From contig CAZTOA010000002.1 in the NCBI GenBank assembly GCA_964614975.1, forward strand, positions 1 through 56,603: a stretch of DNA of 56,603 nucleotides, in the 5' to 3' direction. The DNA comes from an uncultured Gammaproteobacteria bacterium. GTDB lineage: Bacteria > Patescibacteriota > Microgenomatia > UBA1406 > HO2-37-13b. The first letter of the stretch is position 1; each line of letters begins with the position of its first letter. The position numbers were made by a program, and so were the translations under genes. Below, one piece after another: positions 6,670-40,568 of the stretch. The notes under the pieces were generated by a model. That model did not search any database. It was not told the origin of the DNA and was given only the letters and a program-made list of their open reading frames with translations.

Positions 6670-6790
6670 GTGGGTAGTCTATCAAGGAGAAATTAAAGAA
6701 TTATTATGCAAATAGGCCGACGGCCGGGGAATATACCCCCGGGCCGCCGGCACAATCCAAAACAACAATAAGCTCAATGAGAGTAGCCAC

Positions 6791-6827
6791 GGAGGTGGCC
6801 CTGGCGCTGGTAACCAGGGCCACCTCC
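6791..6827 (-). terminator. GC-rich hairpin downstream of cassette-1 ORFs (one of three 3' structures)
   Basis: Perfect 14-bp stem GGAGGTGGCCCTGG (6791-6804) / CCAGGGCCACCTCC (6814-6827). A second imperfect GC hairpin lies at 6715-6751 and an 8-bp stem at 6837-6844/6870-6877. The U-tract is weak and offset (TTATTGTTGTTTT ~19 nt further on). Confidence 0.5.
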
Positions 6828-6940
6828 GGGTAAAGACTACCCAAGTATCCGTGCAGCCACTCACAGACTTTGGGTAGCCGGGCGGCTACGATGCCACCGT
6901 CACCGTGCCGCGGTAGATGTCGAGTTGTTGTCGGCTCTGT

Positions 6941-7063
6941 TCAGAGACCGCTCTCGCCGACACCGCCGGATTGTTCTTCCGACGAGCCTTCAGCTTCGTC
7001 ATCATCCTCGTCGGGGAACCAGGTCGTGGGATCGTTCTTGTCGAATGGCTTCGGATCATCCAT
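6941..7063 (-). CDS. Cassette 1 ORF B: 40-aa acidic peptide MDDPKPFDKNDPTTWFPDEDDDEAEGSSEEQSGGVGESGL
   Basis: Hand translation. The ATG shares its A with the TGA of ORF A (TGATG at 7061-7065). GC-rich codons. Paralogous DPxTW(F)P-acidic motif with ORF A. Below the ORF-track length cutoff. Confidence 0.4.
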   Translation of the reverse strand: MDDPKPFDKNDPTTWFPDEDDDEAEGSSEEQSGGVGESGL

Positions 7064-7176
7064 CAGTCGTAGTCCTCGTTGGGCTCAGCTTCGGGCTCAT
7101 CTTCCTTCGGCCAGGTATCAGGATCCTCTGGATCAACGCCGTTGGTGGGATCCACACCTTGGGTCACTGCGGACAT
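7063..7176 (-). CDS. Cassette 1 ORF A: 37-aa acidic peptide MSAVTQGVDPTNGVDPEDPDTWPKEDEPEAEPNEDYD
   Basis: Hand translation. SD-like GGGAG lies 8 nt upstream of the ATG at 7176. About two thirds of codons end in G/C. Plus-strand ORFs over the same DNA are R/S/P-rich shadow-like. Confidence 0.45.
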   Translation of the reverse strand: MSAVTQGVDPTNGVDPEDPDTWPKEDEPEAEPNEDYD

Positions 7177-7385
7177 CGGAGATCTCCCTTCAATGAGTTG
7201 AGGGGCCTACCTCCCCAGGCCTGCATCCACAGGCTGGGGAGGCTTAAGCCCCAGAGGAGTGTGCTCCCCAGCACCGTTACTGGGGCTGGATAGGCTCTTG
7301 CCGTCAGCAACTCAAGAGCCCTTCCAACCAGGCACGATCTTTTTGAGACCGAGACTTGTTGGAAGAGCTCTTTTTCATTGAAAAC
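7177..7385 (-). promoter_or_regulatory. Long structured 5' leader of cassette 1 (candidate cis-regulatory RNA)
   Basis: Stems seen by eye: 7316-7328/7358-7370 (13 bp, one G-U), 7293-7300/7313-7320 (8 bp, overlaps the former so the two are mutually exclusive), and 7210-7223/7230-7242 (13 bp plus a bulge, containing GGGGAGG). CCCCAG/CTGGGG words are repeated. Confidence 0.35.
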
Positions 7386-7445
7386 TTATTATCTTCGGAA
7401 TATGAAAAAGTGCGTGGTACGTGGACAATACATGCTTGCGTACGG

Positions 7446-7489: not shown

Positions 7490-7515
7490 TATTTCAACTT
7501 GTCAAGAAAAGGGCG

Positions 7516-7541
7516 CGATCCACAAGAAGACCAGGTCTTAT
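7516..7541. repeat. 26-nt repeat copy A (CGATCCacAAGAAGACCAGGTCTTAT), partner at 24489-24514
   Basis: 24/26 identical to 24489-24514. Contains the palindrome AAGACC-A-GGTCTT. The TTA at its 3' end is the stop codon of the minus-strand gene in both copies. Confidence 0.6.
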
Positions 7542-13780: not shown

Positions 13781-13846
13781 AGAGAGATTTTAGAGGGGAT
13801 TTGTTAAGGAATTCTTATAAAGAAGGGCTAGTGGATTAAGAGATGC

Positions 13847-13879
13847 GGGCGGAGCCGTGCGTTGTGCACGACTCCGCCC
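13847..13879 (-). terminator. GC-rich hairpin ending cassette 2
   Basis: GGGCGGAG (13847-13854) / CTCCGCCC (13872-13879), about 60 nt after the stop codon. Poor U-tract. Confidence 0.45.
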
Positions 13880-13940
13880 TCAATGATCCTACCACTCAGC
13901 GGTCTACATGGCACGAGGGCCATTTCGACCGCAGAAGCGG

Positions 13941-14147
13941 TTACGACACGATTTCAGCTCGTGTCAAGGTGGCGCGGATGCGCCCCTGGGCCTCCTCGCT
14001 GTTGAACGCCGCCATTCGTGGTCGCATCCCGTACCTCCGGGCTGCGACGACGTAGGCCGGGCGATACGCCGGAGGGGCGAATCGACGGACGTCATCGAGC
14101 GTACTGCTGGCGCTCCTTGGTGAACCACCGGTCGCTACTTGCTGCAT
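13941..14147 (-). CDS. Cassette 2 ORF: 68-aa basic protein MQQVATGGSPRSASSTLDDVRRFAPPAYRPAYVVAARRYGMRPRMAAFNSEEAQGRIRATLTRAEIVS
   Basis: AAGGAG (14157-14162) lies 9 nt upstream of the ATG at 14147. GC-rich codons. The ORF track extends it to 14240 through a leader hairpin (CCCCGAGTTGACTCGGGG), which I consider less likely. Confidence 0.45.
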   Translation of the reverse strand: MQQVATGGSPRSASSTLDDVRRFAPPAYRPAYVVAARRYGMRPRMAAFNSEEAQGRIRATLTRAEIVS

Positions 14148-14308
14148 GGGTATGGGCTCCTTCTTGCAGCTTGTGCTGATTGCTCGCATCAACATGTGAA
14201 TGTGCCATCCCCGAGTCAACTCGGGGTAGGGGCTGAGCATTCCCTTTCTAGCAACAAAATAAGGCGATTAGCCCCACTTATTACCAAAAAGCATGCGCTC
14301 AACCCCTT

Positions 14309-18528: not shown

Positions 18529-18557
18529 TTGTTATTTTCTATGGGCGTTGTTATAAT
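18529..18557 (+). promoter_or_regulatory. Promoter of cassette 3 (TTGTTA-17-TATAAT)
   Basis: -35 at 18529-18534 and -10 at 18552-18557. About 72 nt of leader before the ATG. Confidence 0.45.
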
Positions 18558-18635
18558 AGGCTGTTCTCGTGTTTTATGCACCTGAACAATGCACCTTTCA
18601 TTCGTTCAATCAAGCCGAAAGGCAGGAGGCCCGAC

Positions 18636-18902
18636 ATGTCGACTTTGTCAGTGCTTGCGACGATTCTGCTGCAGGAAGATGAGATCATCCAACAGCCCAA
18701 TCCCGTCTTGGAGTTCATCCAGGGCAACCTGATTTGGGGAGTCTTGTTGCTCGTCCTCATTGTTGCGGTCGTGGTCTTGTTCCGGCTCAGGAAGACTTCT
18801 CTTGGACACTGCAGCCTGTGTTCGGAGAAGGCTATCTACGTCATCGGGAACAAGCCGTACTGCTCCAATCATGGACGGGAGCTGATCCGCAACGTGAGTT
18901 GA
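18636..18902 (+). CDS. Cassette 3 ORF: 88-aa membrane protein with C-terminal zinc-ribbon-like CxxC...CxxH
   Basis: AGGAGG (18624-18629) lies 6 nt upstream of the ATG. TM helix WGVLLLVLIVAVVVLF. HCSLC...YCSNH motif. The AT-rich 5' extension in the ORF track (from 18462) is probably non-coding. Confidence 0.5.
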   Translation: MSTLSVLATILLQEDEIIQQPNPVLEFIQGNLIWGVLLLVLIVAVVVLFRLRKTSLGHCSLCSEKAIYVIGNKPYCSNHGRELIRNVS

Positions 18903-18928
18903 TTGACGGCGAAGCCGTGAAGGGTGTA

Positions 18929-18957
18929 GTGCGCCCCGGCGATTTGTCGGGGCGCAC
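18929..18957 (+). terminator. GC-rich hairpin ending cassette 3 (also directly downstream of convergent rpiB)
   Basis: GTGCGCCCCG/CGGGGCGCAC 10-bp stem. Sits between the cassette stop (18902) and the rpiB stop (18973). Confidence 0.55.
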
Positions 18958-18972
18958 ATGCACTATTTGTGA

Positions 18973-19575: not shown

Positions 19576-20406
19576 ATGAACACATTTTTCGACACACATT
19601 GTCACTTAAACTTTAGCCGATTCAAAAAAAATGTAGATGAAGTTATTCGTGCCGCAAATAAGGCGGGCGTTAAAAGCATCGTTATTCCTGGAACTGATAT
19701 TATTTCATCGCTGAAGGCGGTCGAGCTTGCACAACAGTACGCAGCTGAGGGTTTGGATATTTGGGCAGCCGTCGGTATTCACCCACATCATGTATTTGAA
19801 CACAAAGAAGGTTCAGATGAGCTTGAAGAGCTTGAAAAACTTCTCAAAGAAGATCGCGTTGTGGCGATTGGCGAAATTGGCCTGGATAAACACCAATACG
19901 AGGCTACAAAGTATGAGGAATATCACGTCGACGATATGTTTATTGAGAAGCAAAAAGCGCTTTTTCGAGCCCAGTTTGAACTTGGAAAGAAGTATGACAA
20001 GTCGATTATCATGCATAACCGCGAGGCGAAAGAGGAGCTTTTGCCGCTAGTGCGGGAATTATGGGATTCGAGCTTAAAAGGAAGGGTAGTGCTGCATTGT
20101 TGTGAGCCTGATATGGAGCTTTTGGAGTTTGCAAAAGAGCTTGGTTTGTACCTCGGTGTTGATGGAGATCTAACATATTGGCCTGAAAAACAAGAATTTA
20201 TAAAGAAAGTTCCGTTGGAAATGTTGGTTATTGAAACGGATGCTCCGTTTTTACTGCCCGAGCCTTTGAAAAGCCAAAAATTGTATCCAAATGTGCCTGC
20301 GAATGTTGTTTTAGTGGCTAATAAAGTTGCGGAATTGAAGAGTGAGTCTGTTGAGCGTGTGGCGGAAGTAACGACTGCAAATGCGAGGCTATTATTCGGT
20401 TTATAG
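19576..20406 (+). CDS. tatD: TatD-family metal-dependent hydrolase
   Basis: FDTHCHL start motif. Start moved to the ATG at 19576 (TATACT 7 nt upstream). The ORF-track start at 19441 overlaps rpiB. Confidence 0.85.
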   Translation: MNTFFDTHCHLNFSRFKKNVDEVIRAANKAGVKSIVIPGTDIISSLKAVELAQQYAAEGLDIWAAVGIHPHHVFEHKEGSDELEELEKLLKEDRVVAIGEIGLDKHQYEATKYEEYHVDDMFIEKQKALFRAQFELGKKYDKSIIMHNREAKEELLPLVRELWDSSLKGRVVLHCCEPDMELLEFAKELGLYLGVDGDLTYWPEKQEFIKKVPLEMLVIETDAPFLLPEPLKSQKLYPNVPANVVLVANKVAELKSESVERVAEVTTANARLLFGL

Positions 20407-20411
20407 CAAAC

Positions 20412-20439
20412 TTGACTTCTCTCAGAAAAGGCCTATAAT
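20412..20439 (+). promoter_or_regulatory. Promoter of cassette 4a (TTGACT-16-TATAAT)
   Basis: TTGACT at 20412-20417 and TATAAT at 20434-20439. Near-identical layout to 20705-20732. Confidence 0.6.
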
Positions 20440-20457
20440 ATTTACTGCTTAAGGTGG

Positions 20458-20473
20458 TACCTGCCCTCAGGTA
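20458..20473. promoter_or_regulatory. Palindrome TACCTG-N4-CAGGTA just downstream of the 4a promoter (operator or 5' stem-loop)
   Basis: Perfect 6-bp arms at about +12 to +27 relative to the predicted start. Same motif at 20748-20765 and a related one at 40008-40021. Confidence 0.45.
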
Positions 20474-20505
20474 TATAGCTAGTTTCGTTCAAAGGAAACT
20501 CCGCT

Positions 20506-20628
20506 ATGCACATGAACACGCCGACCCCACAGCCGCAGACTAACTGCGGTGCTTGCGGAACTGTCTCGCCGGGCTCACTCAGCAAGTGTCCGTCTTGCGG
20601 TTCATCGAACGTCCGCGTCAAGAAGTAG
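20506..20628 (+). CDS. Cassette 4a ORF: 40-aa zinc-ribbon peptide MHMNTPTPQPQTNCGACGTVSPGSLSKCPSCGSSNVRVKK
   Basis: Hand translation. CxxC-N11-CxxC. Weak SD (AAGGA) 9 nt upstream. Below the ORF-track cutoff. Confidence 0.45.
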   Translation: MHMNTPTPQPQTNCGACGTVSPGSLSKCPSCGSSNVRVKK

Positions 20629-20648
20629 CGACTCCGGTCGCTGCACAG

Positions 20649-20681
20649 CCCGCCCTCCCGACATGTGTCGGGAGGAGCGGG
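20649..20681 (+). terminator. GC-rich hairpin ending cassette 4a
   Basis: CCCGCCCTCCCGAC / GTCGGGAGGAGCGGG (one bulge) followed by TTT. A smaller AGCGAC/GTCGCT stem overlaps the stop codon. Confidence 0.5.
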
Positions 20682-20704
20682 TTTCATCCCAACTCTTCCC
20701 AAAT

Positions 20705-20732
20705 TTGACTTCTAATACAAAAAGCCTATAAT
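20705..20732 (+). promoter_or_regulatory. Promoter of cassette 4b (TTGACT-16-TATAAT), duplicate of the 4a promoter
   Basis: AAAyTTGACTTCT...AAAAGCCTATAATA is shared with 20409-20440. Confidence 0.6.
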
Positions 20733-20747
20733 AATACCAGCATTGTC

Positions 20748-20765
20748 GTACCTGCATTCAGGTAC
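20748..20765. promoter_or_regulatory. Palindrome GTACCTG-N4-CAGGTAC downstream of the 4b promoter
   Basis: Perfect 7-bp arms. Same position relative to the -10 box as in 4a. Confidence 0.45.
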
Positions 20766-20794
20766 ACGCTCATTTCGTTATTGTGGAGGTTCTC

Positions 20795-21019
20795 ATGCCT
20801 GGCTGCTCTTTCCCGTCTCGTTGGACAGTGTTCGACCCAAAGCCGCTCGCCATTGGGCCCGGGGAGCCGATCCCACGGGCAGCGGCGCCTGTCGAGCCGT
20901 CGAAGACAGTGACGATCAAGTGTCCCAATCCGGAGTGCCCTTCGGAGTATTACATCGCACCGCCCAACGGGCGCTGTGATGCATGCGATACGATCATACC
21001 GGGCACTGGTGCGGGGTGA
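20795..21019 (+). CDS. Cassette 4b ORF: 74-aa zinc-ribbon protein (CPNPEC...CDAC)
   Basis: GGAGG (20784-20788) lies 6 nt upstream of the ATG at 20795. GC-rich codons. The ORF-track version starts 4 codons earlier at a GTG inside the SD. Confidence 0.5.
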   Translation: MPGCSFPSRWTVFDPKPLAIGPGEPIPRAAAPVEPSKTVTIKCPNPECPSEYYIAPPNGRCDACDTIIPGTGAG

Positions 21020-21054
21020 AGATGACGTGACCGTCGTGTGATCCTCACGCAAGA

Positions 21055-21081
21055 CCCCCGGCGGCATCGCGCCGCCGGGGG
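21055..21081 (+). terminator. GC-rich hairpin ending cassette 4b (adjacent to the convergent ychF stop)
   Basis: CCCCCGGCGGC / GCCGCCGGGGG perfect 11-bp stem with loop ATCGC. Confidence 0.6.
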
Positions 21082-21093
21082 CTTATTAACTTT

Positions 21094-22185
21094 CTAAGCA
21101 GATACTTTGAAGTCAACTACGTCACCATCTTTCATCATGTAATCTTTTCCACCCAATGTTACTTTTCCAGCTTCACGTGCTTTTACCCACCCCCCAAATT
21201 CAACGAATGTTTGATACTGTGTAATTTCAGCCTTAATAAAATGCTTTTCAAAGTCTGTATGAATTACTCCTGCCGCCTGAGGGGCGAGCGTGCCTTTCAG
21301 AATTGTCCATGCGCGAGCCTCAATTTTTCCGGCAGTTAAGAAGGAAATCAGCCCAAGCATATCATAAGCTTCTTTTACAAGTCTATCGAGCCCAGACTTT
21401 TCTAAATTATATGTTGCGAGATATTCAACTTGCTCTTCAGGTTCAAGCACAGATAATTCCTGTTCAAGCTTCGCACAAAGGTACAAGTAAGGATTTTTAG
21501 ATTTTTCTAATGAATTGAGTAAATTATTAATTTTTTCCTTCGTGCCTTCAGGATCCATAAGCTGAGGCTCTGAGACATTAAAAAGAAAAAGTACAGGTTT
21601 TAACGATAAAAGATTAAATTGCTTGAGATGTTCAAGTTGATCCTCTGTGAGTTCAAGATCACGAGCGGATTGTCCACGATTTAATTTTTCTTTAACAAAA
21701 AGCATAGTTTCATATGCGGCTTTTTCTTCTTTTGAAGCATTTGATTTTGGCTCGCGCTGTTTATCGAGAGTGGAGAGATCGGCAAGGATAAGCTCTGTTT
21801 CAATAGTTGCAATATCTTGTTCGGGATTTGCTACTTCATCCACATGAGTAATATTTTTGTCTTCAAAAAGCCTAACAACATGAACGACTAATGATGTTTC
21901 TCGAATATGGGAGAGAAATTTGTTTCCTAATCCAGCCCCTTCTGAAGCCCCGCGTACTAATCCGGCGATATCATAAAATTCTACAGCTGCTGGAACTATT
22001 TTTTCTGTTTCTACAACTTTCGCAAGTTTTGTAAGTCGTTCGTCTGGGACTTCGATAATGCCGACATTTGGTTCAATGGTGCAAAATGGATAATTTGCCA
22101 CATCGGCTACCTGCTTTTTTAAAAGTGCATTAAAAAGCGTTGACTTTCCTACATTCGGGAGACCGACAATTCCTACTTTTAGCAT
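21094..22185 (-). CDS. ychF: Ribosome-binding ATPase YchF
   Basis: GIVGLPNVGKSTLFNAL P-loop and the C-terminal TGS-like DGDVVDFK. TATACT (22192-22197) is 6 nt upstream of the ATG. Confidence 0.95.
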   Translation of the reverse strand: MLKVGIVGLPNVGKSTLFNALLKKQVADVANYPFCTIEPNVGIIEVPDERLTKLAKVVETEKIVPAAVEFYDIAGLVRGASEGAGLGNKFLSHIRETSLVVHVVRLFEDKNITHVDEVANPEQDIATIETELILADLSTLDKQREPKSNASKEEKAAYETMLFVKEKLNRGQSARDLELTEDQLEHLKQFNLLSLKPVLFLFNVSEPQLMDPEGTKEKINNLLNSLEKSKNPYLYLCAKLEQELSVLEPEEQVEYLATYNLEKSGLDRLVKEAYDMLGLISFLTAGKIEARAWTILKGTLAPQAAGVIHTDFEKHFIKAEITQYQTFVEFGGWVKAREAGKVTLGGKDYMMKDGDVVDFKVSA

Positions 22186-22236
22186 TGCGATAGTATAGCA
22201 AAGAGGCAGCTGATCTTATATAGCCTATAGTTTATA

Positions 22237-22245
22237 TGGTATAAT
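22237..22245 (+). promoter_or_regulatory. Extended -10 promoter (TGGTATAAT) of cassette 5
   Basis: Same TGGTATAATAT word as upstream of cassette 6 (23159-23169). No good -35. Confidence 0.4.
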
Positions 22246-22302
22246 ATTTCATCATTCGCTTGGGGCTCAGGCTCTTGGGAGGAAGCGAAAGAAGGAGTGA
22301 GC

Positions 22303-22518
22303 ATGTACGGAGTGTATGCGGGTATCCAATATCTTGTCACCGTGAAGGACGGCAAACGATACATCGGCATCCAAGACATGAACTTCGTCACCAAGCTTGT
22401 CGCCGCCGGCATCGATGTGACGGTGCTGGACGACATTGGCGATCAGCAACCTGACGACGTTGTTCAGGGGTTGCTCGAAAGCCTGCTTGCGGCCTCGACA
22501 AAGGCCAGTCCGGACTGA
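22303..22518 (+). CDS. Cassette 5 ORF: 71-aa protein MYGVYAGIQYLVTVKDGKRYIGIQDMNFVTKLVAAGIDVTVLDDIGDQQPDDVVQGLLESLLAASTKASPD
   Basis: AAGGAG (22292-22297) lies 5 nt upstream of the ATG. Shares KDG(K/R)R.I and (L/F)DDIG(D/E)...DV...G(L/M) blocks with the cassette 6 ORF. Confidence 0.5.
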   Translation: MYGVYAGIQYLVTVKDGKRYIGIQDMNFVTKLVAAGIDVTVLDDIGDQQPDDVVQGLLESLLAASTKASPD

Positions 22519-22524
22519 CCGGAC

Positions 22525-22548
22525 AAATGCCGACCTCCCTCGGCATTT
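22525..22548 (+). terminator. Hairpin ending cassette 5
   Basis: AAATGCCGA/TCGGCATTT 9-bp stem. A GTCCGG/CCGGAC stem overlaps the stop codon. Confidence 0.5.
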
Positions 22549-22600
22549 CTCTTCATCTTCAGGTGTATAATTTATTCATTACAAGTTCATATAAATACGT

Positions 22601-23142: not shown

Positions 23143-23158
23143 ATTGCCAGGATGCGAC

Positions 23159-23167
23159 TGGTATAAT
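23159..23167 (+). promoter_or_regulatory. Extended -10 promoter (TGGTATAAT) of cassette 6
   Basis: TGGTATAAT at 23159-23167. TTGCCA lies only 12 nt upstream, too close for a standard -35. Confidence 0.4.
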
Positions 23168-23237
23168 ATATGCCAAGACAAAATCGCTTAGGAACGTTCG
23201 TTTCTTGGGGGAAGCGGTTTGAACAGCGAGGTGACGC

Positions 23238-23441
23238 ATGAACGACGAGTTGCTCGATACGGGAAACCACATGGGAATTCCATACGAGCTTTGGAGAAAG
23301 GACGGCAGGCGCTGTATCGTTGTTCCGAAGGAGTTGCTCGAAAATCCGCCCTACGGCGTAAGCTTCGAGGGTTTTGACGACATTGGCGAGCGCGAAGCCC
23401 AAGATGTTCTATATGACGCCGTTGAAGGCATGTTCGAATAG
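23238..23441 (+). CDS. Cassette 6 ORF: 67-aa acidic protein, paralogue of the cassette 5 ORF
   Basis: GAGG lies 6 nt upstream of the ATG. MNDELLDTGNHMGIPYELWRKDGRRCIVVPKELLENPPYGVSFEGFDDIGEREAQDVLYDAVEGMFE. The leader shares CGCTT...CTTGGGRGGAAGCG with cassette 5. Confidence 0.5.
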   Translation: MNDELLDTGNHMGIPYELWRKDGRRCIVVPKELLENPPYGVSFEGFDDIGEREAQDVLYDAVEGMFE

Positions 23442-23459
23442 CCCGTCAGGCGGGCATAA

Positions 23460-23486
23460 GGAGCCGTCTCCCACGGCTCCTTTCTT
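23460..23486 (+). terminator. Rho-independent terminator of cassette 6
   Basis: GGAGCCG/CGGCTCC stem followed by TTTCTT, preceded by a GCCCG/CGGGC mini-hairpin. Confidence 0.7.
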
Positions 23487-23513
23487 ACTAAAATTAATTT
23501 TATACTAATAAAA

Positions 23514-24497
23514 ATGACTGCAAAAAAAGGAAATTTTTGGAGGGAACTTACGAAACCACTGTTTGTACAGGCTCCTATGGAAGATGTGACCGATACTGTG
23601 TGTCGACAAATGATTACAAAATGCGGGAAACCCGATGTATTTTTCACTGAATTCACGAACGTGGACGGTATGTTTTCTGAAGGGCGCGAACTTGTTACGC
23701 AAAGATTAAAATATACTGAAATTGAGCGTCCATTAGTTGCCCAAATTTGGGGAGCTAATCCAGACAACTTCTATAAAGCAGCTCAATATATTAAAGAACT
23801 CGGTTTTGATGGCATTGACTTGAACATGGGTTGCCCAATTAAAGATGTTGTTAAAAAGGGGCTTTGTGCTGGGTTGATGAATAATCGAAATCTTGCAACA
23901 GATATTATTGAGGCGGTTAAAGATGGGGCGGGAGGTTTGCCGGTTAGTGTTAAGACGCGCATAGGTATTAATTCAATAATTACTGAAGATTGGATCGGGT
24001 TTTTGCTAGATCATAATCTTAGTGCTCTTACCATTCACGGACGTACGGTCAAGGAAATGTCTTCAGTTCCAGCTCATTGGGACGAAATTGCAAAAGCCGT
24101 CGAGCTCAGGGCACGGTCTAAAAAAGACACGGTCTTAATAGGAAACGGTGATGTAAAATCCCGTCAAGACGGCTTAGAAAAAATTGCAGCATCTGGGATT
24201 GATGGAGTAATGCTTGGGCGCGGCATTCTTGAAAATCCTTGGGTATTTAATACCGAGGAAAAATATAAAAACCCCGCAAATGTGAGTTCAGAAGAGCGAC
24301 TCAAAACGTATGCACAGCATGTGAAATTGCATCAGGAAACTTGGGGAAATACTAAACATTTTGATCGTTTAAAAAAATATATGAAAATGTATATTCGCGA
24401 TTTTGCGGGATCAGGCGAATTACGCATTGAAATTGCAAAGTCGCGCAATGCAGAAGAACTACTTGCTTTGTTGGACAACAATAAGGCACGATCCTAA
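23514..24497 (+). CDS. dus: tRNA-dihydrouridine synthase
   Basis: QAPMEDVTD and DGIDLNMGCP (catalytic Cys) motifs. TATACT at 23501-23506 is 7 nt from the ATG. Confidence 0.9.
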   Translation: MTAKKGNFWRELTKPLFVQAPMEDVTDTVCRQMITKCGKPDVFFTEFTNVDGMFSEGRELVTQRLKYTEIERPLVAQIWGANPDNFYKAAQYIKELGFDGIDLNMGCPIKDVVKKGLCAGLMNNRNLATDIIEAVKDGAGGLPVSVKTRIGINSIITEDWIGFLLDHNLSALTIHGRTVKEMSSVPAHWDEIAKAVELRARSKKDTVLIGNGDVKSRQDGLEKIAASGIDGVMLGRGILENPWVFNTEEKYKNPANVSSEERLKTYAQHVKLHQETWGNTKHFDRLKKYMKMYIRDFAGSGELRIEIAKSRNAEELLALLDNNKARS

Positions 24498-24514
24498 AGA
24501 AGACCAGGTCTTAT
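24489..24514. repeat. 26-nt repeat copy B (partner of 7516-7541)
   Basis: CGATCCtaAAGAAGACCAGGTCTTAT. Supplies the TAA of dus and the TTA (stop) of the convergent 24511-24708 gene. Confidence 0.6.
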
Positions 24515-33025: not shown

Positions 33026-34483
33026 TTATTGAGAAATGTATTTCTGATGATCTGCTTTAACAGTAATCCACATCCACTGATTTGTATTTCCGTCAACTCC
33101 TTGTTTATTGCAGGTGAGGACATAATATCCATCGAAGCCAGGTATAACACGGATTTGGTAGTTTACCGGGCTTGCTCCTTCGCTGTCAAGTAATTCCACG
33201 TCTGTAATTACTCCGTTCAATGTATTTCCGTCTTCTGCGTCTAGGACTAGCTTAGTTCCTGCTAATTTTGCAACATTTTCATCACCAAGTTCGTTTGCTC
33301 TTCTTGATATATCTGCGAAAGGGCCCTCTTGTTTTTTCCAAGTTTGATGTGCTTGGACTACGGGTACTTCACTGACGTTAACGATGGTAAGTCCATTAAT
33401 TGTTTGTGGTGCAAGCTCTTCTCCAGGTTCTACTTCGGAATAATCCTGAGTATTTTCTATGCCGACAGGTTTTTGATAGGTATATGAGGTGCCATCAGTA
33501 TATTCAACAGAGAGTTGCATGCTTCCTTTCATCTCCGATAAGTTGGGGGCTTCTGGATTGGTAGATCCAGTTTGCGGTGCGGGATATTGTGCTGAATCTG
33601 GAGTTGCGGTAGGTGCTGTGCGCGCAAGTTGGGTAAAGTAGCGTTGTTCTGCACGGACTTGATCACCAGATTGTCCAGTATATACACTCACATCGCGAGC
33701 GATTGGGTTTGGCTTCGGCAAGTCTAATGTGGGAAGATCGTTATTGGCATGAGTTAGTCGATAAACACCAAACAAAGCGACACCCAATAAGGCAACGTTG
33801 AATGCTTTTCCAGCTAACTCTTTTGCTTTCCCAAGTCCGAATCTTGATCTTCTTTGTGGGGGTGTTGCTACAATTTGTACTGGTTCCGCAACTGGTTCAA
33901 AAAGACCAAGATCTAAAGTTGGAACTATTTCAATAGGCTCAAGAGTAGCAAGAGCAGGGTCGATACTACCAACAGTTTCAATTGGAACTAAAGGTTCCTC
34001 TGGTGGAAGTTCAGCAATTGTGGCTTTTTTTTGGAAGAGTTTCGCTCTACCTTCAGGATTAAATCGATTACGAATCTTAAAAATAGCCGATTGTTTCATT
34101 TTATATGCAGCGGTTTTGTTATAGCCACTTTCTACGAGTTGTTGATAATACGCATCAACTTGAGCCAAGAGACTTTCTTTGTCCAAGCTTTCGGCATTAG
34201 TGGCATACAAAGCGTCCACATATGATTGGGAAACGGCTTTCGCTTCTTCAGTAAGAACCTGAACATGACGCTTGGTTTTTCTTTTTACTTTAATGCGGAG
34301 CAAATCATTACCATTTGCATTTTCAGTGAAGGCTTCTTGGAGAATTTCGTATGGAGAAAGTGGGGTAGGAGCTGCTTCAACGATAGGTTCAGCAGACACA
34401 ACAAAATTATTGCGATTATTAAAAGCTGTCTCTCCGGTTATTTCATCACCTAATCCTAATTCTGATGCTGTTAATCGATACAT
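33026..34483 (-). CDS. Hypothetical protein with central TM helix and C-terminal extracytoplasmic domain
   Basis: 485 aa. TM segment AFNVALLGVALFGVYRL. The C-terminal domain has a VLTC motif (see rejected sortase idea). Confidence 0.5.
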   Translation of the reverse strand: MYRLTASELGLGDEITGETAFNNRNNFVVSAEPIVEAAPTPLSPYEILQEAFTENANGNDLLRIKVKRKTKRHVQVLTEEAKAVSQSYVDALYATNAESLDKESLLAQVDAYYQQLVESGYNKTAAYKMKQSAIFKIRNRFNPEGRAKLFQKKATIAELPPEEPLVPIETVGSIDPALATLEPIEIVPTLDLGLFEPVAEPVQIVATPPQRRSRFGLGKAKELAGKAFNVALLGVALFGVYRLTHANNDLPTLDLPKPNPIARDVSVYTGQSGDQVRAEQRYFTQLARTAPTATPDSAQYPAPQTGSTNPEAPNLSEMKGSMQLSVEYTDGTSYTYQKPVGIENTQDYSEVEPGEELAPQTINGLTIVNVSEVPVVQAHQTWKKQEGPFADISRRANELGDENVAKLAGTKLVLDAEDGNTLNGVITDVELLDSEGASPVNYQIRVIPGFDGYYVLTCNKQGVDGNTNQWMWITVKADHQKYISQ

Positions 34484-34542
34484 ATTGCTTGGAAATTATA
34501 TTCTTTGCTCCTGCACACATTTATATATATGCATAAGCAAAG

Positions 34543-34555
34543 AGGAGAGAGTTGA
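34543..34555. repeat. Left terminal inverted repeat AGGAGAGAGTTGA of cassette 7
   Basis: Perfect reverse complement of 35818-35830 (TCAACTCTCTCCT). 15/16 if extended by 3 nt. Confidence 0.7.
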
Positions 34556-34564
34556 GATCTGGCC

Positions 34565-34603
34565 CAGGGGGCCCGGGTGGCTCGCGCCAACCCGGACCCC
34601 CTG
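34565..34603 (-). terminator. GC-rich hairpin ending cassette 7
   Basis: CAGGGGGCCCGGGT / ACCCGGACCCCCTG (14 bp, one mismatch), 18 nt after the stop codon. Confidence 0.6.
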
Positions 34604-34620
34604 ACCAGCGCATCCGACGC

Positions 34621-35622
34621 TCAGCGGTTGAAGCTGAACGCGGGGAGGAAGCGGCGCCGATTGACGAAGGCCAGGCCGAAAGCCGCGCCGATCGCCATGA
34701 GCCAGCCGATGATGTCGGTGGCCGCGCCGGTGGTGGCACCCTTCGAGCCGGCCAACTTGAGGTCGAACGGCTGGCAGACGCCATCGACCCGGGTGAGCTT
34801 GGTGAAGCTGCCACCGGGAGTCGCGTCCAGGTCGCCGAGGTACATGGGCTTGCCGCCGGAAGTCGGGATGCGGAAGACCCGCCAATTCCCGCTGCTGATG
34901 GCCACCTTGATGCCCACGGCGAGGCCGTCGAAGCTGCGCTCCATGCCCAGCTTCTTGTCCTTGTTGAAGGCCGCCAGGGCCGCCTCGGCGGTCATGGCCT
35001 TGCCGTTCAGCACGAACAGGAGCTTGCCCGTGAACACGTCGTTGGTGTCACCCACGATGACCTCGGCGGTCTTGGTCGTGGTGATCGGCGACGTGGTGGC
35101 GAAGAGGCACATGGCGGTGCCGGTCGGGGCCGCGGCCGTGGTCGTCTTGGTCGTGCCGGTCTTGGCCTTGGCCGTGGTCGTGCCGCAATAGCCACCGAAG
35201 GTGTTCGACTGACCGCCGACGACTGTGAGGAACGTCGGGATGACCTTGACGTTCGTGCCGTTGAAGAGCACGACGACGTAGTCACCCTCGTCGACCCCGC
35301 CGCCACCGACGGTCGTGCCGCCCTTGACGGTGTCGACCACGGTGGTGCGGAGCTGGTAGACGTTGGCCACGCCGGCCTCGTTGGTGCCGGTGATGACCTT
35401 GCCGTTCTTGACGGCCCAGCCCGGGGCATCGGCGTAGAAGAACTTGGCCCAGGTCTGGCCGGAGCCCTCGGAGGGCTGGCACAGCTCCAGGCTGACGTTG
35501 CCCTGGCCGCCCATGGTGGACGGCGAGGCGTTGGCGGTGCCGGCGAAGCCGGCGAGCATGGAGGCCACCAGGACGGCGGCCAGGCCGAAGGACGTGACGA
35601 TGCGATTGAAGCGGGTGGACAT
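34621..35622 (-). CDS. Cassette 7 ORF: 333-aa secreted surface protein with C-terminal sorting-signal-like tail
   Basis: AAGGAG (35633-35638) lies 10 nt upstream of the ATG at 35622. Signal peptide MSTRFNRIVTSFGLAAVLVASMLAGFAGTANA. Two Cys-bracketed domains joined by TTAKAKTGTTKTTTAAAPTGT. The C-terminus is IIGWLMAIGAAFGLAFVNRRRF. Almost every codon ends in G/C. Confidence 0.6.
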   Translation of the reverse strand: MSTRFNRIVTSFGLAAVLVASMLAGFAGTANASPSTMGGQGNVSLELCQPSEGSGQTWAKFFYADAPGWAVKNGKVITGTNEAGVANVYQLRTTVVDTVKGGTTVGGGGVDEGDYVVVLFNGTNVKVIPTFLTVVGGQSNTFGGYCGTTTAKAKTGTTKTTTAAAPTGTAMCLFATTSPITTTKTAEVIVGDTNDVFTGKLLFVLNGKAMTAEAALAAFNKDKKLGMERSFDGLAVGIKVAISSGNWRVFRIPTSGGKPMYLGDLDATPGGSFTKLTRVDGVCQPFDLKLAGSKGATTGAATDIIGWLMAIGAAFGLAFVNRRRFLPAFSFNR

Positions 35623-35817
35623 GGCGTTCGAGCTCCTTTGATATGCGCTGGTGCGCTGGGTTGGTTCCTGCAAGGGAAATACTCGCGACAGCGTCACGAA
35701 TAGTCTTCCCCGCAGGAGAGGGAAGACATGCTGCAGATACGTCATTTGGCGTACCCGCAACATACCTTCCCCCTAAGCAGGGAAAAACATGCCCTTACAA
35801 AAGGCCCATATAATTAA

Positions 35818-38069: not shown

Positions 38070-39362
38070 ATGGATCCATTTGAAAATGCGCTAACGTTTC
38101 TCAATAACATCAAGTCTAATCTTTCAAAAGAGCATCAGAAATACCTTTCTAGACTTCAAAAGCCCCAAAATATCGTAAAAGGTGAGCTCGAAATTACCAT
38201 GGATAATGGTAAGAAGAAGAAATTCCAGGCATTTCGATCTCAGCATAATAATGCTCTCGGCCCCTATAAAGGCGGTATCCGTTTTCATCCCAATGTTTCC
38301 GAATCTGAGGTCAAGGCTTTGTCTCTTTGGATGTCGCTCAAGACTTCTATTGCCGGAATTCCATATGGAGGCGGCAAAGGTGGGATTATCGTAGAGCCTC
38401 GCGACTTAAGTGCCGGCGAACTTGAGCGTCTTTCACGCGCATATATAACCTTTATTGCACCTCATATTGGTGTTGATAAAGATGTTCCAGCGCCTGATGT
38501 CAATACAAATGGACAAATTATGGCCTGGATGCTTGATGAGTACGAGAAGCTCCAAGGCCATCATGAACCTGGCGTTTTAACAGGTAAACCGCTTGAAATT
38601 GGTGGGTCTGAAGGTCGCACAAAGGCAACAGGTTATGGCGGCGTTTTGGCTCTGGAAGCGCTTCTTGAGCAAATTAAAGATGTTATCGATAAGCCTAAGG
38701 CACAGATTACGATTGCGGTTCAAGGATTTGGAAATGTAGGCTATTATTTTGCAAAAATAGCTTCGGATCAAGGATACCGCGTCGTAGCAGTCTCGGATTC
38801 AAAAGGTGGCGTATATATTGAAGAAGGACTTGATCCAGCAGCCACACTTGCATGCAAAGAACAGAAAGGAAAGATCTCGAATTGTTACTGTGTTGGCGGC
38901 GTTTGTGAGCTCGGAAAAGGTAAAGAAATTACAAATGAAGCTTTGCTCGAGCTCGATGTAGATGTGTTGGTGCCTGCGGCCTTAGAAAACGTATTGCATA
39001 AAGATAATGCAGGCAAGATTAAGGCGAAAGTAGTCATCGAAATGGCAAATGGGCCGTTAACAAGCGAGGCTGACGACATTTTGACGAAAAAAGGTGTTTT
39101 AGTTGTGCCTGACATATTTTCGAATGCAGGTGGAGTAACTGTTTCATACCTAGAATGGGTTCAAAATCGCATGGGTTACTACTGGAGTGAGGCTGAGGTT
39201 GATGCCAAGCTTGAAAACCTTATGGCAAAGGCTTTTGAGGCTATGTGGAAGAAGTATGGCGAGCTCAAGGAGAAGGATAAAAAGAGCGCGAGCCTCAGAA
39301 AAGCAGCATATATTCTCGCTGTTGAGCGTATTCTAGCAGCTGAGATGCTTAGAAGACCGTAA
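38070..39362 (+). CDS. gdhA: Glutamate dehydrogenase (Glu/Leu/Phe/Val dehydrogenase family)
   Basis: YKGGIRFHP, PYGGGKGG and GFGNVG dinucleotide-fold motifs. Confidence 0.9.
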   Translation: MDPFENALTFLNNIKSNLSKEHQKYLSRLQKPQNIVKGELEITMDNGKKKKFQAFRSQHNNALGPYKGGIRFHPNVSESEVKALSLWMSLKTSIAGIPYGGGKGGIIVEPRDLSAGELERLSRAYITFIAPHIGVDKDVPAPDVNTNGQIMAWMLDEYEKLQGHHEPGVLTGKPLEIGGSEGRTKATGYGGVLALEALLEQIKDVIDKPKAQITIAVQGFGNVGYYFAKIASDQGYRVVAVSDSKGGVYIEEGLDPAATLACKEQKGKISNCYCVGGVCELGKGKEITNEALLELDVDVLVPAALENVLHKDNAGKIKAKVVIEMANGPLTSEADDILTKKGVLVVPDIFSNAGGVTVSYLEWVQNRMGYYWSEAEVDAKLENLMAKAFEAMWKKYGELKEKDKKSASLRKAAYILAVERILAAEMLRRP

Positions 39363-40007: not shown

Positions 40008-40021
40008 AACCTGAACAGGTT
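40008..40021. promoter_or_regulatory. Palindrome AACCTG-AA-CAGGTT immediately upstream of the CsoR-like gene (candidate operator)
   Basis: Perfect 6-bp arms, 12 nt before the ATG at 40034, i.e. over the expected -10/start region of a leaderless-type promoter. Confidence 0.4.
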
Positions 40022-40033
40022 ACGGTCTTGATT

Positions 40034-40253: not shown

Positions 40254-40282
40254 TTGCATATCCTATAGTTCTGTATTAAAAT
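40254..40282 (+). promoter_or_regulatory. Promoter of cassette 8 (TTGCAT-17-TAAAAT)
   Basis: -35 at 40254-40259 and -10 at 40277-40282, directly after the CsoR-like stop codon. Confidence 0.5.
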
Positions 40283-40317
40283 AGTAGCTCGCGTTGTCCT
40301 ACCATAAGGAGTTTGCG

Positions 40318-40533: not shown

Positions 40534-40568
40534 TCTGACGCATACTGGCCGTGTAGGACGTATTCGCT

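What the first reader, a model, noticed from the sequence alone, without database searches (positions are those of the whole stretch)
20412..21081. Cassette 4: tandem duplicated promoter-palindrome-leader units driving two different zinc-ribbon mini-proteins
Two consecutive units share AAAyTTGACTTCT-N-AAAAGCCTATAATA promoters (20412-20439 and 20705-20732). Both have a perfect palindrome 12-16 nt downstream of the -10: TACCTG-CCCT-CAGGTA at 20458-20473 and GTACCTG-CATT-CAGGTAC at 20748-20765. Both have a TTTCGTT word and then an SD.

The ORFs differ, but both are zinc ribbons:
- 40 aa, CGAC-N11-CPSC;
- 74 aa, CPNPEC-N14-CDAC.

Each unit ends in its own GC hairpin. Duplication of the regulatory module with different cargo suggests a cassette-building mechanism or a common repressor controlling both.
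Basis: seen in the sequence. Interest (0 to 1): 0.65.

Follow-up and report, generated by a model that had tools for sequence, protein, structure and literature searches.

The report
Twin promoter-hairpin units driving zinc-ribbon mini-genes
Two neighbouring mini-genes for tiny zinc-ribbon proteins in an uncultured Roizmanbacteria-like bacterium each carry the same strong promoter and a small conserved hairpin that most likely folds in the mRNA rather than binding a repressor; it is a tidy, lineage-restricted example of known kinds of element, not a new mechanism.

Summary
Two tandem units (20407-20685 and 20700-21085) share a near-consensus promoter (TTGACTTCT-N10-GCCTATAAT), a 7-bp palindrome 15-17 nt after the -10, a TTTCGTT word, a ribosome-binding site, a small four-Cys ORF (40 and 74 aa) and a strong GC hairpin terminator.

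Both ORFs are real genes (dN/dS 0.10 and 0.24-0.38 against relatives). The host is a roughly 42% GC CPR bacterium; the closest named relatives are Candidatus Roizmanbacteria.

Syntenic TatD-YchF loci from seven further related lineages carry 1-3 such units. Promoter through hairpin is far better conserved (71-87% identity) than neutral sites of the adjacent TatD gene (35-59%).

The palindrome keeps its pairing through compensatory changes (U-A to C-G, C-G to U-A), G-U pairs on the sense strand only, and loops of 4, 5 or 11 nt. Two variants coexist in one genome. This fits a 5'-UTR RNA stem-loop, not an operator for a shared repressor. The "neighbouring" CsoR-like gene lies 19 kb away and has no Cys or His.

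The cargo turns over: deletions, one hybrid promoter, and one zinc-ribbon core swap between 95%-identical flanks. This looks like ordinary recombination on conserved flanks, with no dedicated cassette machinery found.

The hairpin is not in Rfam, and the mini-proteins belong to no curated family. Their functions are unknown.

The parts
19576..20406 (+). TatD-family hydrolase gene, the upstream boundary of the slot
   Evidence: Pfam PF01026 on the called product. The gene is syntenic in all relatives.
20412..20439 (+). Unit A promoter: TTGACT, a 16-nt spacer, then TATAAT, with invariant GCC just 5' of the -10
   Evidence: GCCTATAATA is invariant in the 9 distinct leaders.
20457..20474 (+). Unit A 5'-UTR hairpin: 7-bp stem GUACCUG/CAGGUAU with a basal G-U pair and loop CCCU
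   Evidence: covariation.
20475..20507 (+). Unit A second leader hairpin. The TTTCGTT word (20483-20489) pairs with the SD region (AAGGAAAC), and the outer stem AUAGC/GCUAU covers the AU of the start codon.
   Evidence: Minimum-energy and centroid folds of the window and of L006 unit A keep it despite about 7 substitutions. Only two sequences carry it, so support is weak.
20506..20628 (+). ORF A: 40-aa C4 zinc-ribbon-like mini-protein (CGACG-N9-CPSCG)
   Evidence: dN/dS is 0.10 against L006. Orthologues occur in L006, L093 and L097/L098. Only sub-threshold generic zinc-ribbon matches were found.
20626..20683 (+). Unit A terminator region: two hairpins, 20626-20643 and 20647-20683
   Evidence: -43.2 kcal/mol, z -6.9.
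20705..20732 (+). Unit B promoter: TTGACT, a 16-nt spacer, then TATAAT
20748..20765 (+). Unit B 5'-UTR hairpin: GUACCUG-CAUU-CAGGUAC
   Evidence: covariation.
20773..20789 (+). Unit B TTTCGTT word (20773-20779) and SD GGAGG (20785-20789)
   Evidence: The segment is conserved only within the B lineage (62-66% identity).
20795..21019 (+). ORF B: 74-aa orphan mini-protein with invariant CPNPxC-N12-CDxC
   Evidence: dN/dS is 0.24-0.38. No family match was found.
21051..21084 (.). Unit B terminator: an 11-bp GC stem (21055-21065 / 21071-21081) lying between convergent ORF B and YchF
21094..22185 (-). YchF GTPase gene, the downstream boundary of the slot
   Evidence: Pfam MMR_HSR1 and YchF-GTPase_C on the called product.

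Best explanation
The region holds two autonomous, paralogous mini-transcription units in the TatD-YchF intergenic slot of a Roizmanbacteria-related CPR bacterium.

Each unit has, in order:
- a near-consensus sigma-70 promoter;
- a leader of about 55-60 nt whose first structured element is a 7-bp stem-loop starting about 9-11 nt after the predicted start site;
- a ribosome-binding site;
- a GC-rich ORF for a four-Cys zinc-ribbon-type mini-protein;
- a strong hairpin terminator.

The palindrome acts as an RNA stem-loop in the 5' UTR, not as a double-stranded operator. Its most likely role is to set mRNA fate: protection or processing of the 5' end, or a landing site for an RNA-binding factor. 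In unit A a second hairpin in addition masks the SD and start codon.

The promoter-hairpin module is an old, selectively maintained expression platform. The coding cargo behind it is gained, lost and swapped between relatives by recombination on the conserved or repeated flanks.

Shown: the anatomy, that both ORFs are coding, conservation above neutral, pairing covariation, and cargo turnover. Inferred: the transcription start site, RNA-level (rather than ssDNA-level) action, the specific role in stability or translation, and zinc binding.
For: Anatomy:
- Promoters, palindromes, ORFs and terminators are as described.

Host:
- The closest named genomes are Candidatus Roizmanbacteria (YchF 64-66% identity; TatD hits).

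Both ORFs are coding:
- dN/dS is 0.10 for unit A (window vs L006) and 0.24-0.38 for unit B (window vs L006, L003, L088), with dS of 0.6-1.2.
- The Cys residues are invariant and indels are in-frame.

The module is conserved above neutral:
- Identity from the -35 to the end of the hairpin is 71-87% for unit A against its A-type orthologues (73-77% for unit B against its own; 64-87% over all pairs of units). Fourfold-degenerate sites of the adjacent TatD are 35-59% identical (pS 0.50-0.78).
- The stretch from the hairpin to the ATG is at neutral level across different cargo types (17-39% identity).

Evidence for a folded hairpin:
- 96.8-98.2% of cells are paired. Two pairs show compensatory changes: UA/CG split 4:4 (4:5 in the 9-sequence alignment A6), and CG/UA split 6:2 (7:2 in A6). 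The basal pair is GC in 5-6 sequences and GU in 3.
- No shuffle out of 500 reaches the observed pairing or covariation score. Controls with the partner slid by 1-3 columns pair at only 14-43%.
- RNAalifold predicts this hairpin and nothing else.
- The loop is 4 nt in five leaders, 5 nt in L093 and L095, and 11 nt in L092 and L098 (with possible inner G-C/G-U pairs, read by eye).
- L006 has two different stem sequences in its two units.

Cargo turnover:
- L003 and L096 lack the unit A ORF (junction ctca|gtagcg).
- L088-L091 have one unit whose promoter spacer is A-like and whose leader is B-like. This is the product expected from A x B promoter recombination.
- L092 and L098 are 95% identical in the flanks, but about 110 bp of zinc-ribbon core is replaced.
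- L092, L094 and L095 carry other four-Cys mini-ORFs in the same slot.
Against: - There are no transcript data, so the start site is only predicted from the -10.
- With 8-10 unpaired nt ahead of it, the hairpin is not at the extreme 5' end. Classical 5' stabilisers usually are at the extreme 5' end (my own knowledge, not tested here).
- There are only 9 distinct leaders from closely related lineages, so independent compensatory events are few (at least 2-3).
- Pairing covariation and sense-strand G-T pairs would equally fit a hairpin formed in single-stranded DNA.
- The ACCTG/CAGGT core also occurs at 40008-40021, between a RAYT-like transposase gene and the CsoR-like gene. In the window, ACCTG-N0-10-CAGGT occurs 4 times against 0.34 expected.
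- Structure prediction of the peptides was poor (pLDDT 49 and 69), so 'zinc ribbon' rests on the Cys pattern and sub-threshold profile matches.
- The rest of the genome could not be scanned for further copies.
Confidence: 0.6

Rival explanations
1. The palindromes are double-stranded DNA operators for one repressor, either the CsoR/RcnR-fold protein at 40028-40252 or an unidentified one. The repressor would sit at about +9 to +27 and co-repress both mini-genes.
For: - The palindromes are perfect and lie at a fixed distance (15-17 nt) from the -10 in all relatives.
- Their outer TAC...GTA arms around a C/G-rich centre recall CsoR/RcnR-type sites (my recollection, not tested here).
- A CsoR-fold ORF exists in the window (PF02583, E 2.7e-14). 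An ACCTG-AA-CAGGT palindrome lies 6 nt upstream of its first possible start codon (TTG at 40028).
Against: - Stem positions change symmetrically (TA to CG, CG to TA) instead of conserving a half-site.
- The two units of L006 have different 'half-sites' within one genome.
- Half-site spacing varies between 4, 5 and 11 nt.
- G-T pairs break DNA symmetry in 3 of the 9 leaders.
- The CsoR-like gene is 19 kb away and has no Cys or His.
- The 23-nt stretch that contains its adjacent palindrome (AACCTGAACAGGTTACGGTCTTG) recurs in relative L093, at an unrelated locus, inside a 15-bp-arm palindrome; no such long palindrome is detectable at the window copy.
- No regulator gene is adjacent in any relative.
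Confidence: 0.1
2. The hairpins fold in single-stranded DNA and are substrates of a hairpin-recognising recombinase, such as the RAYT-like Y1/HUH transposase at 39336-39959. That recombinase would build and exchange the mini-gene cassettes.
For: - A RAYT-like gene is present (Pfam Y1_Tnp, E 2e-12; NCBIfam REP_Tyr_transpos, 54 bits).
- Its upstream region carries AACCTGAACAGGTT, which shares the ACCTG/CAGGT core. The surrounding 23-nt stretch recurs at a second locus in L093, where it lies inside a 15-bp-arm palindrome.
- Unit number and cargo vary between relatives.
- One rearrangement breakpoint in L095 falls inside a remnant hairpin arm.
Against: - The hairpin sits at one fixed position, between the promoter and the SD, in every lineage. 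It does not flank the variable segments.
- The swap boundaries in L092 and L098 lie inside the ORF, not at hairpins.
- There are only two copies in 56 kb and one per relative locus, which is unlike REP families.
- The stem sequence drifts by covariation away from the REP-like sequence.
- The RAYT match is below its curated cut-off (54 bits against 80).
Confidence: 0.07
3. The RNA hairpin is specifically an autoregulatory binding site for the zinc-ribbon mini-proteins themselves, or for a common RNA-binding partner. This would give feedback control shared by all cargo types. It is a sub-variant of the RNA reading.
For: - The same hairpin precedes every cargo type, and all of them are four-Cys mini-proteins.
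- The CUG...CAG core and a pyrimidine-rich loop are conserved beyond what pairing alone requires.
- Many zinc ribbons bind nucleic acid (general knowledge). Weak matches were to bL32, eL40, RPB12 and the RadA zinc ribbon.
Against: - There is no direct evidence.
- The cargo families are not detectably homologous to each other (hhalign probability 28%), so a shared RNA specificity is not expected.
- The profile matches are all sub-threshold.
Confidence: 0.12
4. The shared features are only a passive relic of a recent tandem duplication and have no function of their own.
For: The two units are adjacent, and the similarity is confined to about 90 nt.
Against: - Both A-type and B-type leaders already exist in relatives whose synonymous sites are half-saturated or more. 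The duplication is therefore old, yet identity from promoter to hairpin stays at 64-87% against 35-59% at neutral sites.
- The stem shows compensatory changes.
Confidence: 0.03

Closest known systems
5'-UTR stem-loops that control mRNA stability or translation (e.g. the E. coli ompA 5' hairpin, B. subtilis aprE/ermC leaders; from my own knowledge, not tested here)
   Same: A short, stable hairpin near the 5' end of a monocistronic mRNA, upstream of the SD. It is kept by pairing covariation. In unit A a second hairpin masks the SD and AUG.
   Different: The hairpin is predicted to start 9-11 nt from the 5' end, not 0-4 nt. No stability or translation data exist. There is no Rfam family. Distribution is limited to one intergenic slot of one CPR clade.
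Phage 'morons' and other autonomous promoter-gene-terminator insertions with deviant GC content (from my own knowledge)
   Same: A small gene with its own strong promoter and terminator, inserted between unrelated genes. Its composition differs sharply from the host: GC3 is 0.7 against 0.27-0.41.
   Different: The units lie between chromosomal housekeeping genes, not in a prophage. The slot and the regulatory module are conserved over long divergence. There is no similarity to phage or plasmid records or to viral contigs.
Haloarchaeal small C(P)XCG zinc-finger micro-proteins (Brz, PMC2253796; the Haloferax small proteome, PMC10117724)
   Same: Proteins of 40-75 aa consisting of little more than two CxxC knuckles. 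The 40-aa protein has CGACG and CPSCG, which is the C(P)XCG pattern.
   Different: There is no detectable homology. The only NCBIfam HVO_2901 hit was for a relative's paralogue, at 18 bits against a cut-off of 80. The host is bacterial (CPR). No functional data exist.
CsoR/RcnR-family operators
   Same: An inverted repeat with TAC/GTA-like arms lies downstream of a promoter, and a CsoR-fold gene is present in the window.
   Different: The half-site is not conserved, the spacing is variable, the regulator is distant and lacks metal ligands.
REP elements with RAYT (Y1/HUH) transposases
   Same: Short GC-containing palindromes in intergenic DNA, with a RAYT-like gene 19 kb away that has a related palindrome next to it.
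   Different: Only two copies were found. They sit at a fixed position inside a 5' UTR and are positionally conserved across species. They are not dispersed.
Integron gene cassettes
   Same: Small, compositionally foreign ORFs in series, each ending in a palindromic element.
   Different: Each unit has its own promoter. The 3' hairpins are simple perfect GC stems that differ between units, and attC features were not scored. No integrase domain turned up in the 25 window proteins scanned against Pfam; the rest were not scanned.

Membership tests
Sigma-70-type promoter | -35 and -10 hexamers close to TTGACA/TATAAT, with a 16-18 nt spacer | tested here: met
   TTGACT, a 16-nt spacer, then TATAAT: 11/12 in both units. 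The hexamers are invariant or near-invariant in 9 related leaders.
Sigma-70-type promoter | Transcription actually starts about 7 nt downstream of the -10 | not testable with these tools
   No transcript data are available.
Structured cis-regulatory RNA (5'-UTR stem-loop) | Base pairing maintained by compensatory substitutions across homologues | tested here: met
   Two of the 7 pairs show double changes, 97-98% of cells are paired, and slid controls pair at 14-43%. RNAalifold agrees. There are few independent events.
Structured cis-regulatory RNA (5'-UTR stem-loop) | The element lies within the transcript and affects expression | not testable with these tools
   Its position downstream of the -10 is inferred only. 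No expression data exist.
Any Rfam family | A match at the family's gathering score | tested here: not met
   There are 0 matches at gathering thresholds over the whole window, and only chance-level hits at E<=5 within 18.3-23.6 kb.
C4 zinc ribbon | Two CxxC-type knuckles separated by a short beta-hairpin spacer, with the Cys residues conserved | tested here: met
   The 40-aa protein has C14, C17, C28 and C31, invariant in 4 homologues. The 74-aa protein has C43, C48, C61 and C64, invariant in 4 homologues. Its first knuckle is Cx4C.
C4 zinc ribbon | A match to a curated zinc-ribbon profile above its cut-off | tested here: not met
   The best hit for the 40-aa protein is DZR PF12773 at 19.4 bits against 27.3. 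The 74-aa protein has none. NCBIfam, PHROGs and PDB hits are all sub-threshold.
C4 zinc ribbon | The zinc-ribbon fold | tested here: inconclusive
   AlphaFold2 gave pLDDT 48.9 for the 74-aa protein and 68.9 for the 40-aa protein. Foldseek against the PDB found no match.
C4 zinc ribbon | Zinc binding | not testable with these tools
   This needs metal analysis of the peptides.
CsoR/RcnR-type operator and regulator pair | A conserved half-site sequence at fixed spacing, with the regulator gene nearby | tested here: not met
   The half-site covaries, the spacing is 4, 5 or 11 nt, and the regulator is 19 kb away and lacks Cys and His.
Intrinsic terminator | A GC-rich stem-loop followed by a U-tract | tested here: inconclusive
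   The stems are very stable. The tails are only moderately U-rich (UUUCAUCCC and UUAUUAACUUUCU), and neither was called by the consensus scan.
REP/RAYT system | Many dispersed copies of the palindrome, often flanking the RAYT gene | tested here: not met
   The hairpin model finds only the two copies in 56 kb and one per relative locus. A scan for CTG..CAG-core hairpins finds no family. The rest of the genome was not available.
Integron cassette | A promoterless ORF plus an attC site, with an adjacent intI gene | tested here: not met
   The units carry their own promoters. No integrase domain was found in the 25 window proteins scanned against Pfam; the other large ORFs were not scanned here, and Pfam labels for about a dozen of their homologues in relatives show none.

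The most novel reading that the evidence does not exclude
The TatD-YchF slot, and similar GC-rich intergenic slots in this CPR clade, may be a diversification hotspot. A fixed promoter-plus-hairpin expression platform would be retained while zinc-ribbon cores are swapped in from a GC-rich gene pool. That pattern is what one expects of fast-evolving conflict or host-interaction effectors of an episymbiont. The conserved hairpin would be the common handle through which all of them are controlled, possibly bound by the mini-proteins themselves.
Probability: 0.15. Interest if true: 0.7.

Novelty: new member of a known kind. Interest (0 to 1): 0.4.

Why it matters
- It adds a small 5'-UTR RNA motif with covariation support, and two or more orphan four-Cys mini-protein families, from a poorly understood CPR lineage.
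- It shows that a perfect palindrome downstream of a promoter need not be an operator. Comparative data can separate the two readings.
- The persistent high GC content of these mini-genes in a 42% GC genome is an unexplained feature of genome evolution in this clade. So is the turnover of cargo under a conserved expression module. Both deserve a genome-wide look.
- The mini-proteins' functions remain unknown, and the distribution is narrow.

Tried and rejected
- Rfam: nothing at gathering thresholds over the whole window, and only chance-level hits at E<=5. No tRNA or tmRNA genes.
- blastn of 20400-21090 against phage and plasmid records: no match.
- Exact scan for the module pattern (GCCTATAATA..CTG-N4-CAG..TTTCGTT) in JGI metagenome contigs and in viral contigs: 0 hits.
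- The 74-aa family in metagenome contigs: one spurious hit to the zinc ribbon of a 1061-aa orphan protein with helicase-like motifs (my reading of the sequence; L087).
- Exhaustive HMMER search with the 74-aa profile against 1.84 billion representatives: only the family itself plus two repeat-rich Ig_7/CHU_C proteins, judged compositional artefacts.
- Word-indexed search of 5.8 billion proteins: 3 members of the 74-aa family and 1 extra member of the 40-aa family.
- Structure prediction of both peptides gave low confidence, and the Foldseek search returned nothing.
- PHROGs, NCBIfam and PDB sequence searches: only sub-threshold generic zinc-ribbon matches.
- The covariance model R1 found no further copy in the window with filters off, or in 154 kb of related loci.
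- A conserved second structure across all leaders was looked for and not found. Only the A lineage has the hairpin that masks the SD.
- The closest named genomes (Roizmanbacteria, YchF 64-66% identity) lack GC-rich islands next to YchF, so they could not be used for comparison.
- The hypothesis that the CsoR-adjacent palindrome is the same operator was weakened. The 23-nt stretch containing it recurs in L093, at an unrelated locus, inside a longer REP-like palindrome.
Full report

Yes. The string TTGACTTCT-N10-GCCTATAAT occurs exactly twice in the 56.6-kb window, at 20412-20439 and 20705-20732. None of 100 shuffles gave two matches. Both sites score 11/12 against the sigma-70 consensus with a 16-nt spacer, and they rank first among promoter-like sites in 13-25 kb.

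TACCTG-N4-CAGGTA also occurs only twice, at 20458-20473 and 20749-20764, against an expectation of 0.03. In unit B the palindrome extends to GTACCTG/CAGGTAC. The TTTCGTT words, SD-like sequences, start codons and the two ORFs (40 aa at 20506-20628; 74 aa at 20795-21019) are as described.

Each unit ends in a very stable GC hairpin: -43.2 kcal/mol (z -6.9) and -40.2 kcal/mol (z -4.7). Alignment of the two units shows similarity only over about the first 90 nt.

Small corrections apply. The Cys spacers are 10 and 12 residues. The CsoR-like ORF is at 40028-40252, about 19 kb away.

**2. Context**

The window is a cellular genome of about 42% GC. The units lie between a TatD hydrolase gene (19576-20406, + strand) and YchF (21094-22185, - strand), with RpiB and Rpe genes upstream. 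The closest named genomes are Candidatus Roizmanbacteria (CPR/Microgenomates): YchF is 64-66% identical, and many of the TatD homologues at 52-58% identity that carry a name are labelled Roizmanbacteria.

The units form one of about eight GC-rich islands (51-64% GC) in the window. At least six of them carry small or orphan ORFs, and the four I read in full each have their own promoter-like site and terminator hairpin. The mini-ORFs have GC3 of 0.69-0.72, against 0.41 for TatD and 0.27 for YchF.

**3. Are the ORFs genes?**

The 74-aa protein has only three members among 5.8 billion protein clusters, plus a fourth in L088 read from DNA. The 40-aa protein has homologues in L006, L093 and L097/L098.

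Codon-level comparison gives dN/dS of 0.10 for unit A (window vs L006, dS 1.1) and 0.24-0.38 for unit B. Indels are in-frame and all four Cys are invariant. Both are therefore protein-coding genes under purifying selection.

Neither belongs to a curated family. The 40-aa protein gives only sub-threshold generic zinc-ribbon matches (DZR at 19.4 bits against 27.3; bL32, eL40, RPB12 and the RadA zinc ribbon in the PDB). The 74-aa protein gives none. An exhaustive profile search found only compositional artefacts. AlphaFold2 models were of low confidence, and Foldseek found nothing. 'Zinc ribbon' is thus a motif-level assignment.

**4. Relatives of the locus**

I used exact-protein look-ups of TatD homologues at 78-90% identity, and of the mini-proteins themselves. 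These recovered syntenic TatD-[units]-YchF loci (some on contigs too short to reach YchF) from seven further related lineages besides the window's own strain.

- **L006** has both units.
- **L003, L004, L005 and L096** have lost the unit A -10, leader and ORF through a deletion of about 190 bp (junction ctca|gtagcg), and keep unit B.
- **L088 to L091** have a single unit. Its promoter spacer resembles unit A and its leader and cargo are unit B. This is the product expected from recombination between the two repeated promoters.
- **L093** has a single unit with a 40-aa-type cargo.
- **L092, L095 and L094** carry other four-Cys mini-ORFs behind the same, or in L094 a degenerate, module. L092 and L095 also have further four-Cys ORFs downstream.
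- **L092 and L098** are about 95% identical in promoter, leader, N-terminal codons and terminator, but about 110 bp encoding the zinc-ribbon core is unrelated.

The slot is therefore a conserved home for a changing set of four-Cys mini-genes.

**5. What is conserved, and how**

Identity from the -35 to the end of the hairpin is 71-87% for unit A against its A-type orthologues and 73-77% for unit B against its own (64-87% over all pairs of units). Fourfold-degenerate sites of the adjacent TatD gene are 35-59% identical, with pS of 0.50-0.78. The segment between the hairpin and the ATG is at neutral level across cargo types (17-39% identity) and is conserved only within a cargo lineage.

GCCTATAATA is invariant in all nine distinct leaders. 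The hairpin starts 15-17 nt after the -10 in all of them.

TTTCGTT is not part of the universal module. It is present in the window, in L006 and approximately in L093 and L088, and absent in L092, L095 and L098.

**6. Operator or folded strand?**

On alignments of 8 and 9 distinct leaders the 7-bp stem is paired in 98.2% and 96.8% of cells.

- Pair 2 is U-A in 4 sequences and C-G in 4-5.
- Pair 4 is C-G in 6-7 sequences and U-A in 2.
- The basal pair is G-C in 5-6 sequences and G-U in 3, always G-U on the sense strand.
- No shuffle out of 500 reaches the observed pairing or covariation score. With the partner slid by 1-3 columns, pairing falls to 14-43%.

RNAalifold predicts this hairpin and nothing else. 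Loop length is 4 nt in five leaders, 5 nt in L093 and L095, and 11 nt in L092 and L098 (with possible inner G-C/G-U pairs, read by eye). Within one genome (L006) the two units have different stems: GUACCUG/CAGGUAU and GCAUCUG/CAGAUGU.

A dimeric DNA-binding repressor reads a conserved half-site at fixed spacing. Symmetric double substitutions, variable spacing, and two half-site versions in one cell are not what such a site shows. They are what a stem-loop shows. I therefore read the palindrome as a 5'-UTR RNA hairpin.

The same data cannot formally exclude a hairpin formed in single-stranded DNA.

**7. Rest of the leader**

In unit A (window and L006), a second hairpin pairs the TTTCGTT region with the SD (AAGGAAAC), and an outer stem AUAGC/GCUAU covers the AU of the start codon. 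It survives about 7 substitutions between the two sequences, which suggests translational masking. Only two sequences support it. No equivalent conserved structure exists in unit B or in the other cargo types.

**8. More copies?**

A covariance model of the -10 through the hairpin (R1) scores the two window copies at about 60 bits. Nothing else in the window scores above 12 bits with filters off. It finds one copy per related locus and none elsewhere in 154 kb.

The module pattern is absent from JGI metagenome contigs and from viral contigs. The region has no similarity to phage or plasmid records. Within the data available, the module is specific to this locus and is not a regulon or a dispersed repeat. 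The remainder of the genome could not be searched.

**9. The rivals kept alive**

ACCTG-N0-10-CAGGT occurs four times in the window against 0.34 expected. One extra copy, AACCTGAACAGGTT at 40008-40021, lies between two genes:

- A RAYT-like Y1/HUH transposase gene at 39336-39959 (Pfam Y1_Tnp, E 2e-12; NCBIfam REP_Tyr_transpos, 54 bits against a cut-off of 80).
- The CsoR-fold ORF (PF02583, E 2.7e-14, with no Cys or His).

The same 23-nt sequence recurs in relative L093 inside a palindrome with 15-bp arms, between two glycosyltransferase genes. It therefore looks like a REP-like element rather than a CsoR operator.

The shared 5-bp core may be coincidence. It is why I keep small probabilities on a DNA operator (0.10) and on an ssDNA recombination substrate (0.07).

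**10. Mechanism, committed**

Each unit is an independent monocistronic transcription unit. It is driven by a strong constitutive-type promoter, and its mRNA begins with a short single-stranded stretch and a conserved 7-bp stem-loop. The stem-loop acts in cis at the RNA level, most likely in 5'-end protection or processing, or as a protein handle. In unit A a second hairpin adds SD/AUG masking.

The module is an old expression platform, and the repeats it creates also serve as recombination substrates that delete, fuse and exchange cargo.

My confidence is about 0.9 in the anatomy, about 0.7 in RNA-level action, and about 0.35 in a specific role in stability or translation. Overall confidence is 0.6.

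**11. Novelty and interest**

All components are of known kinds: a sigma-70 promoter, a 5'-UTR hairpin, small zinc-ribbon-type proteins, hairpin terminators, and tandem duplication with recombination. The hairpin motif and the mini-protein families are new members, restricted to one CPR clade.

Two features are genuinely odd and go beyond this finding. The first is the long-term maintenance of high GC3 in these mini-genes. The second is the recurrence of GC-rich orphan cassettes in the same intergenic slots across relatives.

Interest is 0.4.

Noticed in passing
window 39336-39959 (-) and 40008-40021; L093:15064-15096: A RAYT-like Y1/HUH transposase ORF of 208 aa with an NHFHLL motif (Pfam Y1_Tnp, E 2e-12; NCBIfam REP_Tyr_transpos, 54 bits, below the cut-off of 80). 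The palindrome AACCTGAACAGGTT lies in its upstream intergenic region. The same 23-nt sequence sits in relative L093 inside a 15-bp-arm palindrome (CAAGACCGTAACCTG-AA-CAGGTTACGGTCTTG) between two glycosyltransferase genes. This may be a REP-like element.
   Followed up: partly
window 40028-40252 (+): A CsoR/RcnR-fold ORF (PF02583, E 2.7e-14) that contains no Cys or His at all, so it cannot sense metal through the canonical ligands. A GC-rich orphan cassette follows it at 40279-40665.
   Followed up: partly
window 6679-7386, 13791-14278, 18530-18960, 22230-22578, 23150-23497, 34481-35808, 40279-40665: Further GC-rich islands (51-64% GC in a 42% GC genome). Those at 18.5, 22.2 and 23.2 kb, read in full, each carry an orphan small ORF with its own promoter-like site and GC hairpin terminator. 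The largest encodes a 380-aa protein with no Pfam match whose hydrophobic N- and C-terminal segments look like a signal peptide and a membrane anchor (my reading). Relatives show GC-rich islands in the two slots I could match by their flanking genes (Rpe-RpiB and TatD-YchF), but with different cargo.
   Followed up: partly
window 22285-22518 and 23238-23441: The two cassettes flanking the CHRD-like gene encode paralogous acidic mini-proteins of 71 and 67 aa (31% identity, E 4e-7), with a shared DNA stretch at 22429-22461 and 23376-23408. Relative L088 lacks both cassettes.
   Followed up: partly
window 7503-7541 and 24476-24514: A 39-nt direct repeat (85% identity) containing the palindrome AAGACCAGGTCTT. 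It lies beside the 3' ends of two unrelated genes. There are 2 copies against 0.03 expected.
   Followed up: no
L092:7700-8161 vs L098:110-600: Two closely related genomes are about 95% identical in promoter, leader, N-terminal codons and terminator, but the roughly 110-bp zinc-ribbon core of the mini-ORF is replaced by an unrelated one.
   Followed up: yes
L092:1359-5558: A 4.2-kb island of 67% GC with DUF2786/DUF7168 genes, inserted near the Rpe gene of a relative. It may be an integrated element from a high-GC donor.
   Followed up: no
window 20506-20628, 20795-21019 and orthologues: GC3 of the mini-ORFs stays at 0.52-0.89 in relatives whose synonymous sites are near saturation, while the host genes have GC3 of 0.27-0.41. 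There is no sign of amelioration.
   Followed up: partly
window 20795-21019 vs 20506-20628: There is weak local similarity between the second knuckle of the 74-aa protein (PNGRCDACDTIIPGTG) and the first knuckle of the 40-aa protein (PQTNCGACGTVSPGSL). hhalign probability is 28%, which is not significant, though it could hint at knuckle shuffling.
   Followed up: no
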